Assembly: GCF_002113885.1 (NCBI RefSeq)
Contig: NW_018408627.1
Coordinates: 90,422 to 154,421, forward strand
Reading direction: 5' to 3'
Length of the DNA stretch: 64,000 bases
Source of the DNA: Mizuhopecten yessoensis
Lineage: Eukaryota
Shown here: piece after piece, positions 11,246-52,110 of the stretch
Position numbering within the stretch: the first letter of the stretch is position 1
How the letters are laid out: each line of letters opens with the position of its first letter
Notes under the pieces: model-generated
What the model saw: only the letters and a program-made list of their open reading frames with translations
Database searches by the model: none
Told to the model about the DNA's origin: nothing
Program-made: the position numbers and the translations under genes

Positions 11246-12249
11246 TGGCGTGTCATGTTTGCGGATGGAGAATACGTTTTATGTACATAAAGGAGGTTTC
11301 TAAAAGAAAGAATAGCTACTTTCTAACGGCACTAAATATTCAGGTACATCAACTAGAAATGTGATGTAATAAAGTTACGACATCGAGAGCTTTTCATCCT
11401 GTTCGTATATATAGTCATTGGGGTGGCATTTTTAGGTCCAAATATAACTGTAACAAATAATCAGGTCCCTGTGGTTTGTACCAGTCATAACTGTCATTTG
11501 TTGTTATCTGGGACAACGTAGGTTGCTTGTATAATACTTTGCTATGCACAGACCTGAGTCCACTGAGGTTGTTTGTAGATAATCATACATAATTTAGCTT
11601 TGCATGTTTAAACAACAACCATAAATGACAAAAAGAAACAATGTTGAAGTGATTAGTAACCCCTATCAGCGCGCGAAATGCAGCAGCAGCAGCAGCGGCA
11701 GCATCAGCAGCCGCAAAGAGAAAACAAATTACAATCAATATTCAGAACATATTATGCTTCCTTTTACTAATCGGCAAGAACATCCCAGTTGAAAAAGGGT
11801 GTGACCCGATAGTATTGATGCTTTGTAAATAAAAAACAAGCATGTCAAGCAAAGATAAGTCGTGCGCCTCCTTCATAGAAAGATGCCATGTTAAACCATC
11901 AACTTATCATATCTTCACCTAAGTATTATTAAAGTGAATGGAAAAGATTAATGAGATCTCGTCCTGTCAAACAACACCTATCTGATAGGAGGAATCAGGC
12001 CCCTACAAACTCTTACACATTGAACCAGACAAGTATCGCCAGAAGATGTTATTGACGTGGACAAGGAAACGATGGAACATACCATTAATATGCCTTTCTT
12101 GTTTCTAACCTATCTCTCCCAGACATATATACAACTTCAAACCAGCAAGCGAGACCACAAAACCAAACCCCCCTTCCTNCCAGCCAATATACCTATTCAT
12201 TCCAGCACAATGCTCAAAACTATTAAATATTGCAACTGCCACCAACATT

Positions 12250-13620
12250 GTGTGCTCTGATAGGTATACCAAAACATCATCTTAGAAAATTGTCATTCCC
12301 TCCCGGCAAAAGATTTGCAATAAACAAAGAAGAACCAAGAATAAGAGGCGAAACTACACACCAACTCCACATTAGTAGAATATATCAAAAGGCATGATAA
12401 TACGTTATTCTGTCCGAAACCGCATTAAGTGAAGGAGAGTTGATACGATATTCATATCGTTGTGAAGTGTCCATCTCAGAGGTCATTGGAATCTTCCCAG
12501 AATTTGAAAGAAAATCAATCAAATTTAAAACCCCTGACGTAACTTATAATGGATTTTCTTCCATTAGCTTATAGTTATGGTTTCAATAACACGGGCGTTT
12601 TAATTTCATTATAGCCTCATACAATCCTGGAGAAGTGTGATAACACCCACACCTTACTTGCTGGTTTATGACTGTATGATGGTGATCTATTAAATACTAC
12701 CGTCAAGGAGTTTGTTAGGAAATACAACCCCACAACACAATAAAAGGGAGATTCGACCTTTAAACATCAAACTGTATAATCTACAGTGGAATTTGAATAT
12801 ATTATCAAAAACTACAACAATAGTAACCCATTTTGTTTTGAGGTTTCCTGACCACAAAGGTTTACAAACATCTACTCAATAACTTAACACGAACTAGTCT
12901 GGAGTAGACGTAATTGTCATAGTGCAAACATTTCATAGAAATGCAGCTCTTACCATGTACCCAGCTCTATAGAAGCTACACTACCATAGCTCTGATTGAA
13001 CATTCGATTCAAACCACACGAATGCGCTTGTATTCCAAATAAAAGACTGGTCACATGGTGGAAAAGGAAAACGCACAAGCTACTCCAACACAGCTGTAAG
13101 GCGGATATAGAAACGTGACGGCTTCACGGCAATCCTGACATCCGTAAACATAAGACCTTAATAAGATAAAACAACACGTCAGAAGCCTAGCTTAGAATAC
13201 AAAAGATGTACTACCAAAAGGACGGAAAAGGTCATGCATTCGAAAACTGGGTAATGTGTCATGGTTAACAACAGGAATTAGCTAAACGTTTGGCGAAAAA
13301 GTACATCCCGAGGATAATCCATACATGAACACTACGTCTCACAAAGAGACAATCACCATTCACAAAAGGTATGTCAATCACCATTAACACAACCGATGTA
13401 GAAACACGGAGTTATACTAAACTTAAAAGGAGAACAGTTTAAAGATGGTGTCACTAAACAAAAACGTTAAACCTCTGATCTCTATGGCCTTACTGCCAAA
13501 ACATCAAACTACCTGTGACATCTTATTGGCCACTGATCCCCAACTATATCATGGCTATCTTAAAACTTAGCATAATCAAATCTTCATATGCACCCTAATA
13601 AAGCCCTGGTTACTAAGTAA
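12250..13620 (+). mobile_element. Decayed non-LTR retrotransposon ORF2 (APE endonuclease to RT start; RTE-X-like)
   Basis: Collinear frameshifted motifs: EYIKRHD..ILSET (APE N-terminus), TWWKR (PWW motif), LHGNP, TSDLYGLTAK (cf. KAxDxxGLTAEH); A-rich sense strand. Confidence 0.5.
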
Positions 13621-14578
13621 GGATTAATTGGAAACTGATATCAATTACATGTAATACTTTCTGAGCAATGTATGGTTAAAAAACGAAAATACTCCTCAAC
13701 GCAATGTTAAAAAAAAACTTCTCAAAAGGTATGTACTGTGTATTGTTATTACATATTTAAAACAAGAAAGCCTGATAAAGACTTAAGTCTAGGTAGAGTT
13801 AGCAGTTACTCCACTTCTTTCCAGAAACTACAAACCCGTTATATTGACAATGATGTTTTTACAGCTGTATATGTAAATGTATGGTCCTGTATAGTCCCAT
13901 GCTAGTTAAGCACTGTAAGTGTTTGATGTATTTTGCTGAGTTTCATCAACTTTAGGTTCGAATTACGGTTTCATTTACACTGCGGCATTCTTTTGTTTTC
14001 TGTTGAATTAATCGCTAAGGCACACTTATACCTTCCACATTCGTGGAGAAAACATTCTGTGTTTTCATTCAAGTTAACAGTGCTACCTACCTTACTGATA
14101 TCAACTGATGACCGTCAGAAGGCTAGATGAAGATACTTAAAGATTAAAAATCAGTTGAAAATAATGCAGATAGTGCCTTTCATGTTTTAAATACAACTTT
14201 GGATATCATAATTTCACCCCACCCATACTTCTTCAGACTTTACGTGCCGTACAGTTGTTACCACTCACAATCGCTGCGTGACCAGTCTGTAAACTTACCC
14301 CCATGGTCAATATGAACCATTTAGTTTGACCCAAATATGACTGCGCTAAATATCCTCAGTTCCCTGAACATCTTTATTCATAATAAGATCTGCCTACGCC
14401 AATGACATTGTTGATATTTGCCATTGATTATTACAATATTACTTGATTGCATTACGTTATTGCTTACGGAAGCTAACAATTTTGACCTTGAGTGTTGACA
14501 CAATTATCATTTTTCTACTTTACCTTTAAGTTAATTTTGTATGAAATATAACAACTAAGCAATTCGTTTCGATATTAT

Positions 14579-14712
14579 GATCGGTACGACGTTCTACTTT
14601 ATGGAGTACAGAAAACCAATATCGAACTTGGCCTTCGGCCTTGATCAATATTGGTTTTTGTGCTCCATAAAACGTCGTATTGATCTCACAAAAATGCCGT
14701 AATTGTAAAATA
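14579..14712. mobile_element. Palindromic element end with GGCCTTCGGCC apex (Crypton-like non-autonomous terminus)
   Basis: ~50-bp arms GATCGGTACGACGTT..TTTATGGAGTACAGAAAACCAATAT / ATATTGGTTTTTGTGCTCCATAAAACGTCGTATTGATC, followed by AATTGTAAAATA; same architecture as 53530-53670. Confidence 0.65.
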
Positions 14713-14943
14713 TGTCATCTCTGGTTACATCAACGCCTCCGTTTTTATGTGGAGTTTCGTGATTTCTTTTCGTTCGTTTTCCATTCTCTTGCATTTTAGT
14801 TATTAATCTAACATCACAAATCTGAGTATAAATGGTGTCTTCGTGTGTAGTATTTTATAATACAGGTAGATGGCTCGTGAAACATCCAATGTATAATGTT
14901 TAGACACGTAATCCAAAATCAATACAACTATTGATTGACAGTT

Positions 14944-15573
14944 AATAGTAGTAACATACATTATACCAGTTATTCCTGCTTACACGTCACAGTTGATTCG
15001 TTATAAACTGTAAATAGTAGCAACATACATTGTATTAGCTATATATACCTGCTTACACGTCATAGTTGATTCGTAATAGACTGTAAATAGTAGCAACATA
15101 CATTGTATTAGCTATACCTGCTTTCACGTCACAGTTGATTCGTTATTGTCTGTAAATAGTAGCAACATACATTGTATTAGCTATACCTGCTTACACGTCA
15201 CAGTTGATTCGTTATAGTCTGTAAATAGTAGCAACATACATTGTATTAGCTATACCTGCTTACACGTCACAGTTGATTCGTTATTGACTGTAAATAGTAG
15301 CAACATACATTGTATTAATTATCCCTGCTTACACGTCACAATTAATTCGTTATAGACTGTAAATAGTAGCAACATACATTGTATTAGGTATCCCTGCTTA
15401 CACGTCACAGTTGATTTGTTATTAACATTAAATAGTAATAAATTACATTGCATTAGTTATCCCTGCTTACACGTCACAGTTGATTTGTTATTAACATTAA
15501 ATAGTAATAAATTACATTGCATTAGTTATCCCTGCTTACACGTCACAGTTGATTTGTTATTAACATTAAATAG
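14944..15573 (+). repeat. Minisatellite, 69-bp unit, ~9 copies, derived from a PLE RT motif
   Basis: Tandem unit; first copy 14963-15004 reads IPVIPAYTSQLIRY and is preceded by AGT AAC ATA (SNI). Confidence 0.95.
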
Positions 15574-15989
15574 TTGCCAGAGTTAGATAAACATGATAAT
15601 CAACCATTACGGGTTTCGGAACCTTTTATTCCATCAATGTTCAGATATGATGGAAAAAGATGTTGAAGATATTTCTAGAAAATTGCCATGAAATATGACG
15701 TCACAATGAAAAATGACGACGTAAAACATTGTTACTTGACGTCATGGTTAAAACGTTAACTAATGAAATAACGCCCAGAGTGTTACCAACTTGCAACGAA
15801 AACATGTTCGTTCACTTACTCTATGCAGGTTTATCCATTGAGTCGGGAGTGAGGAAACCTATAGTGATTATTTGGTGAAATCTTATTTTTACATTTATCG
15901 TGACATAATTACTAACTAAAATACATATATAGTATATATCTTGAGTAAAGCTCAAGGCGTCTTACATCGTTTGTGATTTATATGTATTC

Positions 15990-28600: not shown

Positions 28601-30499
28601 TCAGCTAAAAAAAATACATTAAAGAAATGAAATATTAATAACAATCAATTTCATGAATTGTTTTCTTTAGTCAAAAATAACATTAACGCTTGGAGATAAT
28701 TTCTTTATATTCTTTGACCTACGAAAAGACACAGAACACGAACTATCATAACAGATACCAATCAAATGTACAAGCAGACACTCTCTACAGTAAAGAACAA
28801 TGTTTATCTTGTTTACAGATATCTCCCTTGGAACAATCCGTCGTCTGTTTCAACAACCTTACGAAGAAACAAAGGCAGCTGAAATGGACTTCTGCTCGTT
28901 GAAATTCTGCATAATCTGTCTCCAGGGGAGGTAAATAACAAGAATTGTTCAATGTTTGGACAAGTTGAAGTGGAAGGCACTAGAAATACGCATGCTTCTT
29001 CATCATTTGAAGATGTGAGTGCAAGCGATATTGACGACTATCTATCTAACCCGCAAAAGCACAATACACACTGATAAATCGAGAAAAGTCAGTATTACTG
29101 AGTCAGGAAAAATACGTTTAACCAAAGTGTTTCACCGCAAGTGAGCTTAACGCTAAAATGTCTGCAAACGTACTGTAAGTAAGGATTACCGAGTACAAAG
29201 TGCCACCAACCCTGAGAGTACATTAGAGTAACAATGACGCATACCTCAAAGTAAACAACTTTAATACACATACAATGTCTGATAGCAAATAGCAAAATTC
29301 AGTAATTAAAATAATTGTTTTATAAACAAATATAGATAACTGTGAATGGGAAGGAGAAATATTTTCGGACCGCTGATAAATCAGGATTTGGAACATGTGA
29401 ACGTCACACACACGCTTAGCTTCCATTCACATCCACTCCTTTATCGTACGAAGATAACTATGTTTCACATTTGTAAATAGTATCAGAATCTGAGCCATGC
29501 TTGTGGTTTTTATTTTCTAAAACTGAACGCCAGTCTTTACACAGCATAGGTACAATGAATTTGAAATTGAGAAAACAAATAATACATTACAGCTCAACAA
29601 TAAAAATACATTAAAATAACTGAATAGAATATGTTTTTCTTACAGCGTAAACAATATGAATATACAACGAACCATAAGATTTAACATAGAAAGACAATTT
29701 ACAACGGCGTCACAAATAAAAAAAGCGTTAAAAATAAGAAAAGAATAAAAAAAATATTTCACATAGAAAAGGAAACATACAAAAAGAATCAAATATAAAA
29801 TTACCGGAATAAGTAAAATAGAAAGCGGGTAATTCAACACTACTATGCTCGTTACCTCGTGAAAGGGTAAACGTATGCTACTTGTCGACTAGGAACAGGA
29901 AAGCTAACGATTGTGAAAGTAAAGTGAGGTTTGTCATGGAGTTTGAAAGTGTAATGTTTATGCCGTGTATTTAAGACTGAAATAAAAATGTAGATGTGGT
30001 ATATGATTTATTCTTTTAGATTTGCTTAGAGGTATTAGGAAAATAGAAAGGCTCAATAAGAGATATACACTTAAATTTAAATTAATGTAGAAATCTGGCA
30101 AGATAAGTGACCTTCACAAATCTACTCTTAGACAACTCCATATTGCTAAATGAAGAATAAAAAGAATGACACTTATCTTATATAGACAACGTGGAATGAT
30201 GTTAATATGAAATATCAATGTGCTGCAAGCGTATCTGTCACTGGCTTTAGGCAGTATTAATGATGACAAAGCAAAGCCAAATCACGCATGATTTTCTCCT
30301 TACGTTGTTTTGAACATGACGAATGTATCACGGTGGCAGTTAAATATACAGAATATATAGTACGGGCGTTTTCTGTAAGTCAAGTTTATTGTGATGTAAG
30401 ATAATTGTTATCGAACTCCAATCACGTTTTATTTTAATGTCAACATAATAATCCGGAGATTCTTTGTTTAATGATAAGTATGTTGTATTCTTCTCACTC

Positions 30500-35039: not shown

Positions 35040-35450
35040 ACTTTTACCTATCAACAGAAAACGGGTAGTCGACATAGTCCCACGTATTGTACACCTTAGT
35101 AGTAAACCGCTCCTGCTTGTCTTGTTGTAAGAAAACATTGTGGAAAGCGGCTTCAGTAGAAGAGTCCATAGTGTCTTTGTTTATATACGATCGATGTGTT
35201 CAATGGATTTCTTATTATTAAAAGACAGCAGGCCATCGATATATCTGAATGTGAAACTGAAGGACTCGGCTAGGTCTTTTTTACTAGTCCTGATAAGCTC
35301 ATCAGTAAATTCAGCTTCTAATGAAAACAAAAACAAATCGGCCAGAAGAGAGGCCAAGTTTGTACCCATAGGAATGCTTACAGTCTTCTGGAAAATCTTG
35401 CCACTGAAGTCAACAGAGATATTGTCAACCAGGATCTCCATCATTCTCAC
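35040..35450 (-). pseudogene. Penelope-like (Naiad-type) reverse transcriptase pseudogene fragment
   Basis: LVDNISVDFSGKIFQKTVSIPMGTNLASLLADLFLFSLEAEF...FTFRYIDGLLSFNN, then after a frameshift KDTMDSSTEAAF...QERFTTKVYN; matches the PLE motifs GIPMGTNCAPLLADLFL and FRYIDD. Confidence 0.88.
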
Positions 35451-37859: not shown

Positions 37860-38345
37860 GCCAAGGTGTTCGGGGAAGTTATTCAAGCTCTCCAACGACA
37901 GCCGCCGTGTAAATCCAGTAAATCCCAAATAATGTCAAATCAACACAACGATTACATGGACAGTGAAAATGAAACCATCAGCCACATTGTTCAACACAAA
38001 GATATGCATATACACAAGGAAATAAAATATTTCACATTTATATTAATCTATATGAACCTGCACCTCTCAAAACGAAGTGTTCTAAGTTTTTCCGCCAGCT
38101 TTCACCATCGATAACGGAATTACTTATATTCGAAGCAAGTCGTAAGATATCGAATCAATTGCGACAGATCAACGACAAAGTTGGGGGAATTGGGGATTTT
38201 ATTATAAAGAAATGGAAAGTTCACTTTCGGTAAATCGAAATCGCCCCTCTTATAATAAAACTTAAAACTTTGTAATAAACCGTTAGCGAAGATCTGATGA
38301 TCATACTGTAAGAAGAAAAAAACGTCACAACGTACGGATACCATA
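37860..38345 (-). pseudogene. Penelope-like (Naiad-type) RT C-terminal fragment plus 3' end
   Basis: NGLLQSFKFYYKRGDFDLPKVNFPFLYNKIPNSPNFVVDLSQLIRYLTTC matches KLYDKRDDFNFPIVNFPFLxSNIPxSPAYGVYISQLIRYARAC. Confidence 0.88.
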
Positions 38346-39429
38346 TGCAAAATGTCTTATCATACTGCATCCATTAATAAAATCGCTGAGCTTAATATCA
38401 TCGTCAGCAGTCGATAATCACCTTTTCTACATTTTAATTTCTTATTAAAAAAAGACCTCCACCCGAAAATAATTATTTTTTTCAAATTGATTTAATGACG
38501 CACTCTAAATTTGCATTTTACCTCAAATATGTGTAGTTCTAATCAAAACATTAAAAACACCGTTTTAATCATGGAAAACTCTCCTATGTTAGGTTGGTGA
38601 AAACAATAAAGTTGAACAATGATGTTGGCGTCGTTATCTGTGAGGTAGCACACCAAATGTTCATGACGTTGTCAAGCACAGTGCTTGGTGGCGTCAGATT
38701 CAGCTAATGTTATGAACACTGTATTAATATTAGTATGCACTTTATTGCTGTATTCAACTGTTGTGCTTAACCATGGCTTATTTTCATTGTAGATTTTAAG
38801 CATTAGACAAAGAAGGGAATAATTATATAACACTCGTGTGATAACCTATAGTTTCTGTAAAATACATGCGCTATTTAACAGACAACACATCCTTTCTCCT
38901 TTAAACTACGCCTGTTTCTGAGTATCAATAAGCAGCTTGTCAGATCAAGCTTGCGCCCTAGCTTGATCCTAGTATTTATTACATTATAAATGTTATAAAC
39001 TCTACTCTGTGATCGTGATTCCTTGATGGTACGTATGTACGCAACCCTCTGGTATTTCATAACACACCCCAATGATACGTGTAACGATTTCCAGTAATTC
39101 AGAGGAAATAATGCATTTTGCAATACCTATAAATCAACATTGTTATAGATTTACTATAATATGAACGAAAACATGAAACGTCGATTAAACTGGGGATGTT
39201 TTTATTAATCTGTATTTGTGACGTCATTTGGTCCACACGCCCAAAGCTGTCCAAAGTGTACGCCCGTATAAGGTCATGTGTCATGTGGGTAAGACGATGA
39301 ACTGTTGATAGGTGGTATGCTTGTTTATTGTGAAGAACTGATTCAGATTGTGATTCGGCTGAAATGTTTCTGATTCCTTAACGAGGTTTTCATAATTTTT
39401 GTAATGGATGCAAGGGTCATATTCATTAG

Positions 39430-50510: not shown

Positions 50511-51079
50511 AAAAGTATTGAATGATTAATATCTGCAATAATGGATATCAGGCATGGATTGATCACGACAGGGTTACGTGATACCTCAAAAATTAATCAA
50601 TATTGACATTTAAGATTTAATGTTGATTTAATATTTGGAAATAATAGAATTTTGAGTTAACAAAGTCCGGTTGTTGTTTTTTATCGAGAAATTGGTTTAC
50701 CGTTACCACCAGATAGCACACATTACATGTAGCGTCTACCGAGGTAATCGTGGGAAATACAACATCAGATGAAAAAATTGATTGTAATCTAATTCTGCAA
50801 TAATTCTCATCTGACCTCATTTATATCCCTGCTATCCATTTAACCAGTATTTCCCAAGTAATTAAGTGATCAGATCAATTAAACCGATGTTAACTACTCA
50901 TCATGTCGGGACTTTATTTGTTTTCATACATTCTAACCATACTTGTATTAAACATTTAACAAACCAAGCTGAAACACGATGTCGATGTGATCAGCTCATA
51001 GAATATCGAGATCACTTAATAACGTCAAACGTCTCAATGAGCGTGTTGCTTTTAGGCTGTTTTGTACAATAAAATAACG

Positions 51080-52110
51080 TCCGAAGTATCCTACACAAGG
51101 CGGTGTCCAGGGTACTCTACACAAGGCGGTGCCCGGGGTATCCTACACAAGGTGGTGGCCAGGGTACTCTACACAAGGCGGTGTCCGAGGTATCCTACAC
51201 TAGGCGGTATCCAGGGTACTCTACACAAGGCGGTGTCCAGGGTATCCTACACAAGGTGATGTCCATGGTATCCTACACAAGGTGGTATCCAAGGTATTCT
51301 ACACGAGGCGGTATCCAAGGTATTCTACACAAGGTGGTGTCCGGGGTATTCTATACTAGGCGGTGTCCGGGGTTTCCTACACTAGGTGGTGTCCGGGGTA
51401 TTCTATACTAGGCGGTGTCCGGGGTATCCTACACTAGGTGGTGTCCGGGGTATCCTACACAAGGTGGTGTCCGGGGTATCCTACACAAGTCGGTGTCCGT
51501 TGTATCCTACACCCGGCGGTGAACGGGGTATCCTACACAAGGCGGTGTCCGTTGTATCCTACACAAGGTGGAGTCCGGGTATCCTACACTAGGTGGTGTC
51601 CGGAGTATTCTACACTAGGTGGTGTCCGGGGTATCCTACACAAGGCGGTGTCCGGGGTATCTTACACAAGGCGGGGTCCGGTGTATCCTACACAAGGTGG
51701 AGTCCGGGGATCCTACACAAGTCGCAGTCCGGGGTATCCTCCACAAGTCGGTGTCCGGGGTATCCTACACTAGGCGGTGTCCGGGGTATCCTACACAAGG
51801 CGGTGTCCGTTGTATCCTACACAAGGTGGAGTCCGGGTATCCTACACAAGGTGGTGTCCGGGGTATCCTACACAAGTCGCAGTCCGGGGTATCCTACACA
51901 AGTCGGTGTCCGGGGTATCCTACACTAGGCGGTGTCCGGGTTATCCTACACAAGGCGGTGTCAAGGGTATCCTACACAAGGCGGTGTCCGGGGTATTCTA
52001 CACTAGGCGGTGTCCGGGGTATCCTACACAAGGTGGTGTACGGAGTATCACAGTTTCTTGAGTATCTTACACAAAGTAGTTTCTGGGGTGTCCTTACAAG
52101 GTGGTGTTTC
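51080..52110 (+). repeat. GC-rich minisatellite, 26-bp unit (GTATCCTACACAAGGCGGTGTCCGGG), ~39 copies
   Basis: Direct repetition. Confidence 0.98.

What the first reader, a model, noticed from the sequence alone, without database searches (positions are those of the whole stretch)
14944..15573. 69-bp minisatellite encodes the PLE signature SNI..IPAY[GVY]TSQLIRY
Clearest single case. 14963-15004 translates IPVIPAYTSQLIRY, and unit-internal AGTAGCAACATAC reads SSNI. SQLIRY is identical to the residues in the relic at 38120-38350. It is strong evidence that this satellite unit is retroelement coding sequence.
Basis: partly seen in the sequence, partly recalled or inferred. Interest (0 to 1): 0.7.

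Follow-up and report, generated by a model that had tools for sequence, protein, structure and literature searches.

The report
Minisatellite born from dead Naiad retroelement
A 69-base DNA repeat, present about nine times in a row at one place in this animal genome, is a scrambled copy of a short piece of a dead Penelope-like jumping gene; it likely makes no protein, likely arose by an ordinary copying slip, and the same old element has seeded other repeats across the genome.

Summary
The array is 14934-15574, period 69, 9.2 copies, one locus in the assembly. Its unit derives from the RT C-terminal coding DNA of an old Naiad-type Penelope-like subfamily ('B') found by searching the genome. 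Corrections: 'encodes' is figurative (two frames, stops throughout, no RNA reads); the protein match alone is not significant; the 38-kb relic is another subfamily, not the parent. Best explanation: slippage in place between short direct repeats in a decayed relic, then local expansion. The same 200-base stretch seeded 10 unit types on 20 scaffolds, but a weak control shows no special hot spot and 24.5% of this window is tandem repeat. TE-derived minisatellites are well known, and this scan found the same kind before in other genomes. Real, tidy, ordinary.

The parts
14934..15574 (+). 69-bp minisatellite, 9.2 copies; unit derived from Naiad-type PLE RT C-terminal coding DNA (subfamily B profile positions 288-359)
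   Evidence: 47/58 identity
14947..14955 (+). Unit 1, start of the SSNI segment
14956..14962 (+). 7-base insertion relative to the element (placement ambiguous by a few bases); shifts the frame; present in all well-aligned units
14963..15004 (+). IPVIPAYTSQLIRY segment; 9 bases (GVY) missing near 14980
15005..15015 (+). Unit end and junction; either downstream element sequence after a 5-base deletion, or upstream element sequence (not resolved)
14882..14945 (+). Left flank: weak match to the element sequence upstream of SSNI, probably the rest of the parent relic
   Evidence: score 34.5, 10 of 2000 shuffles, 9 of 1268 window tiles reach 34; one search gave 29 of 500 with a shorter reference
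15579..15869 (+). Right flank: right part of an unrelated, abundant ~455-bp dispersed repeat whose palindromic left arm is missing here
37958..38314 (-).
   Evidence: E 4.6e-48

Best explanation
The array is a likely non-coding minisatellite whose unit comes from the reverse-transcriptase tail of an old Naiad-type Penelope-like retroelement, and it likely formed in place by a copying slip in an already decayed relic, followed by local expansion. Shown: homology of 50-58 of the 69 bases, the shared indels, a single locus, and stops in every frame. Inferred: (1) a subfamily-B fragment inserted here and decayed (7-base insertion, 9-base deletion between two short TTA repeats, one more deletion); (2) mispairing between short direct repeats duplicated one segment; (3) slippage, unequal exchange or conversion added units; (4) a junction with an unrelated repeat removed the right-hand part of the relic. 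It most likely does nothing and behaves as a neutral length-variable repeat.
For: Units align to the majority of 19 dispersed subfamily-B copies far above shuffles. The part outside the motif used to pick those copies still scores 35-38 against about 16 +/- 3, with 0 of 2000 shuffles reaching it for 5 of 5 units tested. The best internal 9-base near-repeat of the majority (7/9, one of two such) lies 76 bases apart, which fits 69 - 7 + 9 + 5. The well-aligned units share the insertion and deletion, so decay came before expansion or was homogenised. Units 8 and 9 are identical and units 3-5 differ by 2, as expected for local stepwise growth. The left flank weakly continues the element. Two sister arrays sit inside relics with clear flanks (L153, L207; 0 of 500 shuffles on the left side). 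No RNA reads cover 12204-15514 in 2 raw RNA-seq runs. Contigs from 2 of 4 DNA runs join 15034 to 15524, which suggests a shorter or reordered allele. The 5-10 bp flanking-repeat route is the standard model (PMC6947457, passages).
Against: The left-flank match is weak: 10 of 2000, 29 of 500, not found by nhmmer, and weaker in the allele lacking 14933-14940 (28 of 2000). The right flank shows no element sequence (276 of 500). The junction is not fixed, because an 83-base origin with a 12-base deletion also gives 69. Most sister arrays show no clear element flank, and two 53-mers on different scaffolds share an identical consensus, so arrays do move in this genome. A profile from 9 copies picked by an upstream motif did not hit the array; few of those copies extend over the unit. 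About 19% of each RNA run was read, tissue is unknown, and the neighbouring unique DNA is also uncovered.
Confidence: 0.75

Rival explanations
1. Same retroelement origin, but the array was born elsewhere and moved here (circular DNA, ectopic conversion, or carriage by another element).
For: No element sequence on the right flank and only a weak match on the left. 53-mers with 92-100% identical consensus lie on 4 scaffolds with different flanks.
Against: No second 69-bp array in the assembly (L055/L220 is an allelic contig). The left flank matches the expected upstream part in the expected orientation. The right flank is explained by a junction with another repeat.
Confidence: 0.14
2. The element's own reverse transcriptase, a sister of telomerase RT, made the first repeats by copying one template segment several times during insertion.
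For: Ten unit types come from one 200-base stretch. Array units are closer to the family majority (81-96%) than dispersed copies are (mean 70%, 13 copies). One 53-bp array lies next to an inverted element fragment (L136). PLE RTs are related to telomerase (PMC8557442, abstract).
Against: Units here share three indels and about 19% divergence, which fits decay before expansion. The inverted neighbour at L136 has subfamily-A sequence. The identity gap is inflated by motif selection and by consensus averaging. Host sequences become arrays just as readily in this genome (24.5% of the window; earlier notes e1-9564777, e1-9911939). The in vitro PLE study (PMC11167929, parts 1-2 of 4 read) reports no reiterative synthesis in those parts.
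Confidence: 0.06
3. Chance resemblance of an AT-rich repeat to a short motif.
For: The protein-level match is not significant. The subfamily-A DNA profile gives only E 0.017-3.8 on a core of about 27-32 bases.
Against: 60 genome matches to the core against 0 for the control. 0 of 1000 and 0 of 2000 shuffles. The top 5 of 871 window tiles all lie in the array. Four segments fall in colinear order.
Confidence: 0.02
4. The array is functional: a coding repeat or an RNA that silences the element.
For: 69 is a multiple of 3, and one frame is open for 72 codons.
Against: That frame has no methionine and stops in 4 earlier units. No RNA reads. No Rfam match on the array. Copy number appears variable. 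Small RNAs were not examined.
Confidence: 0.03

Closest known systems
TE-derived minisatellites (Ahmed and Liang 2012, PMC3389668, passages read; reviews PMC6947457 and PMC9659126, passages read)
   Same: A short piece of a transposable element amplified head to tail by local duplication. At least 23% of human mini/satellites arise this way, some TE regions yield more arrays than others, and short flanking repeats are the proposed trigger.
   Different: The source is RT coding DNA of a Naiad-type PLE, not Alu, LTR or MITE sequence. The two reviews have no occurrence of 'Penelope' in their main text.
Naiad clade of Penelope-like elements (Craig et al. 2021, PMC8557442; abstract, passages and section 6 read)
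   Same: [quoted passage not shown] The SNIP..SQLIR motif lies at residues 913-943.
   Different: The array is not an element: 69 bases, no frame, no pLTR. In that paper the word 'satellite' at a word start has 0 occurrences; it describes partial tandems of whole copies.
Penelope-related satellite DNAs (Harttia HviSat02-2707, PMC11955569, passages; listed as a satDNA source in PMC12692304, passages)
   Same: Tandem repeat related to a Penelope-like element.
   Different: Those are satellitome families with long units. This is a nine-copy, single-locus minisatellite mapped to codon level.
Non-LTR retrozymes (bioRxiv 10.64898/2026.07.22.740005, abstract and outline only)
   Same: Tandem arrays derived from PLEs.
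   Different: Retrozymes come from the pLTR and carry hammerhead ribozymes. This unit comes from RT coding DNA and has no Rfam match.

Membership tests
Minisatellite (VNTR) | Head-to-tail unit of 10-100 bp in a short array | tested here: met
   Period 69, 9.2 copies
Minisatellite (VNTR) | Copy number varies between individuals | tested here: inconclusive
   Contigs of 2 of 4 runs join 15034 to 15524, and depth differs along the array; short-read contigs cannot give copy number
TE-derived minisatellite | Unit homologous to part of a transposable element | tested here: met
   42/50 to 47/58 identity, 0 of 1000 shuffles for 8 of 9 units; 0 of 2000 outside the anchor motif
TE-derived minisatellite | Element sequence continues in the flanks | tested here: inconclusive
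   Left flank 10 of 2000 or 29 of 500; right flank none, taken by another repeat
TE-derived minisatellite | Short direct repeats bound the duplicated segment in the parent | tested here: inconclusive
   7/9 near-repeat with exact AGTA at distance 76 in the family majority; an alternative junction also fits
Naiad PLE (source family) | GIY-YIG endonuclease N-terminal to the RT | tested here: met
   PF01541 at residues 129-222 in P0042, P0061 and P0014 (the last below the curated cut-off), RT after 640. In G000, L097 has the endonuclease piece upstream of RT on one strand. Not shown for subfamily B itself, which is placed by its RT 3' match to the same protein profile (iE down to 3e-16).
Naiad PLE (source family) | CxC motif and DKA motif | tested here: met
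   Present in 4 of 4 full-length relatives checked; DKA in 11 of 11
Naiad PLE (source family) | Insertion-in-fingers domain, pLTR structure, lack of canonical hammerhead | not tested
   No intact copy was examined, and no tree with reference clades was built
Naiad PLE (the array itself as an element) | Open reading frame with RT and endonuclease | tested here: not met
   5-32 stops per frame; motif split over two frames
Non-LTR retrozyme | Hammerhead ribozyme in a pLTR-derived unit | tested here: not met
   No Rfam match on the array at E <= 1; unit maps to RT coding DNA

The most novel reading that the evidence does not exclude
The 3' RT region of one Naiad subfamily is a true minisatellite nursery: ten unit types on twenty scaffolds were seeded by the element's own telomerase-like reverse transcriptase copying short template segments repeatedly during insertion, which would make Penelope-like elements direct writers of tandem repeats.
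Probability: 0.06. Interest if true: 0.7.

Novelty: new member of a known kind. Interest (0 to 1): 0.2.

Why it matters
It is a clean worked example of a retroelement codon stretch turning into a minisatellite, with the indel history readable base by base. The set of 10 unit types from one 200-base stretch is a small natural series for studying how minisatellites start, whether the same junction recurs, and how arrays spread between loci. It changes no view of PLE biology unless the RT-made reading proved true. Practical point: such units escape protein searches, so annotation will call them anonymous repeats.

Tried and rejected
Ungapped register (LAIPAYTSQ laid on PAYGVYMSQ with 2 bases lost): suggested by subfamily A, dropped once subfamily B gave the +7/-9 alignment.

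Relic at 38 kb as parent: rejected (16/19 at the core).

Pattern joining SNI to an intact GVY motif: 0 matches.

Pfam on the relic peptide and on the L013 frame: no relevant family.

Protein profile on 21 window arrays: nothing under iE 0.4.

26-bp array at 51079-52049 as a further derivative: its right edge scores 28, a level reached by 17 of 871 window tiles; not established.

Special hot spot at the SNI..SQLIRY site: not supported. The motif lies inside an array at 9 or more of 66 listed places (35 places inspected, several chosen for clustered hits), against 1 of 9 places for an upstream motif. A third motif gave 1 match and is uninformative.

Flank test used dimer spans that overshoot; it was redone, whose numbers are used apart from the window's left flank.

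Rows dropped: from the 33 loci, 11 with arrays nearby and one duplicate short contig were left out of the profile. Four more (L194-L197, another element carrying the motif) were removed and L127 and L153 added, giving 19 rows.

No RNA holder was listed for the stretch.

Paper searches listed no study of Naiad-derived minisatellites; the library is partial and no supplements were read.

Full report
Observation. TRF reports an array at 14934-15574 with period 69, 9.2 copies and 91% matches; unit 2 is 73 bp. 14963-15004 reads IPVIPAYTSQLIRY. SSNI is read in 7 of 9 units, but in another frame than PAY..SQLIRY of the same unit. The relic at 38126-38356 (minus strand) carries SQLIRY. A DNA search with two units, a tight pattern and a 1.6-kb query found the array only at this place, plus an allelic contig of its right edge. 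Over the array the six frames hold 5-32 stops, and the longest open stretch is 72 codons without methionine.

The element family. The relic peptide has 87 matches in G000 (150 of 477 candidates scored). One copy has a 247-codon frame with RT motifs. Its longer relatives number 435 at E <= 1e-20; the named ones are from a bivalve. Full-length relatives of about 1000 aa have GIY-YIG at residues 129-222, CxC near 430, DKA near 555, YIDD near 840 and SNIP..SQLIR at 913-943. This is the Naiad layout described in PMC8557442 (abstract, passages and section 6 read). All 50 matches to a full-length relative in G000 are fragments with stops (46 of 5388 candidates scored). L097 has endonuclease and RT pieces in Naiad order. 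A DNA profile of 39 such copies (subfamily A) finds relics at 35067-35311 and 37958-38314, but hits the array only on a core of about 27-32 bases, at E 0.017 and weaker.

Finding the real source. The unit's 25-base core, with up to 2 mismatches, has 60 matches against 0 for the reversed control. These include 53-bp arrays on other scaffolds and dispersed relics (7 of 8 confirmed by the profile). A search for two cores 55-84 bases apart found an 81-bp array and a 29-bp array inside a relic. Their sequence pointed to an older subfamily B, with 103 motif matches against 0 for the control. B copies match the Naiad protein profile at the RT 3' end (iE down to 3e-16). They are about 70% identical to their majority (13 copies).

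Unit anatomy. Against the majority of 19 dispersed B copies, unit 1 aligns at 42/50 and units 4-5 at 47/58, with a 7-base insertion after SSNI, a 9-base deletion of the GVY codons and a 5-base deletion near the end. Scores are 35.5-51 against about 19 +/- 3.4; 0 of 1000 shuffles reach them for 8 units and 1 of 1000 for the last. Units 8-9 align only in their 3' half. Because the B copies were picked by a motif that overlaps SSNI, I rescored only the downstream part: 35-38 against about 16 +/- 3, 0 of 2000 for 5 of 5 units. A profile from 9 copies picked by an upstream motif did not hit the array, but few of those copies cover the unit. Its peptide evidence alone would not carry it: iE 4.8 against a protein profile, and E 1.7e-4 in a 78,000-residue library of relatives. 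Of 21 window arrays tested, only this one matched the 3' DNA profiles; those profiles cover about 580 and 420 bases, not the whole element.

Surroundings. The left flank (14882-14945) weakly matches the element upstream of SSNI: 10 of 2000 shuffles and 9 of 1268 window tiles, 9 of 500, 29 of 500. The right flank does not match (276 of 500). From 15579 it is the right part of an unrelated ~455-bp dispersed repeat whose palindromic left arm is missing. Rfam has nothing on the array. Two raw RNA-seq runs (about 19% of each read) put no reads on 12204-15514, and none on the neighbouring unique DNA; reads fall only on dispersed repeats, and no splice joint was seen. DNA contigs from 4 runs of 3 studies hold parts of the array. 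Two runs from two studies join 15034 to 15524 and lack 8 bases at 14933, which suggests alleles of different length or order.

How it most likely formed. Inferred order: insertion of a B fragment, decay with three indels, duplication of one segment by mispairing of short direct repeats, then stepwise expansion. In the B majority, one of the two best 9-base near-repeats (7/9) lies 76 bases apart, which matches the unit after the three indels. An 83-base origin with a 12-base deletion would give the same length, so the junction is not fixed. Units 8-9 are identical and units 3-5 differ by 2 bases. This is the flanking-repeat model summarised in PMC6947457 (passages).

Sister arrays. Units on 20 scaffolds map to B positions 191-386: 28 bp (5 scaffolds), 30, two different 44-mers, 50, 51, 29, 53-54 (8 scaffolds), 81-82 and this 69. 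All 26 rows tested exceed shuffles (at most 1 of 200). Two have clear element flanks (L153, L207), two have marginal ones (L059, L039), and many flanks are assembly gaps. Two 53-mers on different scaffolds have the same consensus, so both repeated birth and later spread probably occur. A special hot spot is not shown: 9 or more of 66 places for the SNI motif against 1 of 9 for an upstream motif, a small control in which arrays have more chances to match. Tandem arrays cover 24.5% of this window.

Comparison and verdict. TE-derived minisatellites are common (at least 7,276 in human, PMC3389668, passages), and Penelope elements are listed among satellite sources (PMC12692304 and PMC11955569, passages). 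Six paper searches listed no report on Naiad-derived minisatellites; supplements were not read. Earlier notes of this scan describe the same kind of event in two other genomes, and arrays born from transposon ends and splice sites in this one; a look-up by sequence found nothing. The finding is real and correctly read, and it is a new member of a known kind. Interest 0.2.

Noticed in passing
window 35067-35450 (-): Second Naiad-type relic of subfamily A, covering the GIPMGT to YDKR region with a frameshift.
   Followed up: partly
window 29871-29956 (-): Short relic of subfamily B (E 0.00086).
   Followed up: partly
window 51079-52110 (+): 26-bp array whose right edge reads like the residues after SQLIRY (tblastn E 0.011); DNA score marginal, so origin unproven.
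   Followed up: partly
window 15579-15869 and L221 1389-1843: Abundant ~455-bp dispersed repeat with a ~165-bp palindrome at one end; 828 candidates in the first look. Not classified.
   Followed up: partly
window 14579-14685: About 107-bp palindrome, 74% self-complementary, possibly a small inverted-repeat element.
   Followed up: no
G000 C314, C869, C2634, C4241, C76706, C3918, C5569, C4985 (L056, L059, L039, L138, L123-L126): 53-54 bp minisatellite family from the same element, profile positions 321-373; L199 appears to hold a two-copy duplication of this segment inside a relic.
   Followed up: yes
L136 5090-5890: A 53-bp array lies back to back with an inverted subfamily-A fragment that starts at nearly the same profile position (322); L066 also starts at 320.
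   Followed up: partly
L203, L199, L141, L163: Deletions of 6-9 bases over the GVY codons recur in other subfamily-B copies and in the 81-bp unit.
   Followed up: partly
L194-L197: Four near-identical copies of another element carry the SNI motif next to a simple-repeat tract; possibly a captured fragment.
   Followed up: no
whole window: Tandem arrays with period 10 or more cover 24.5% of the 64 kb, with about 20 unrelated units.
   Followed up: partly
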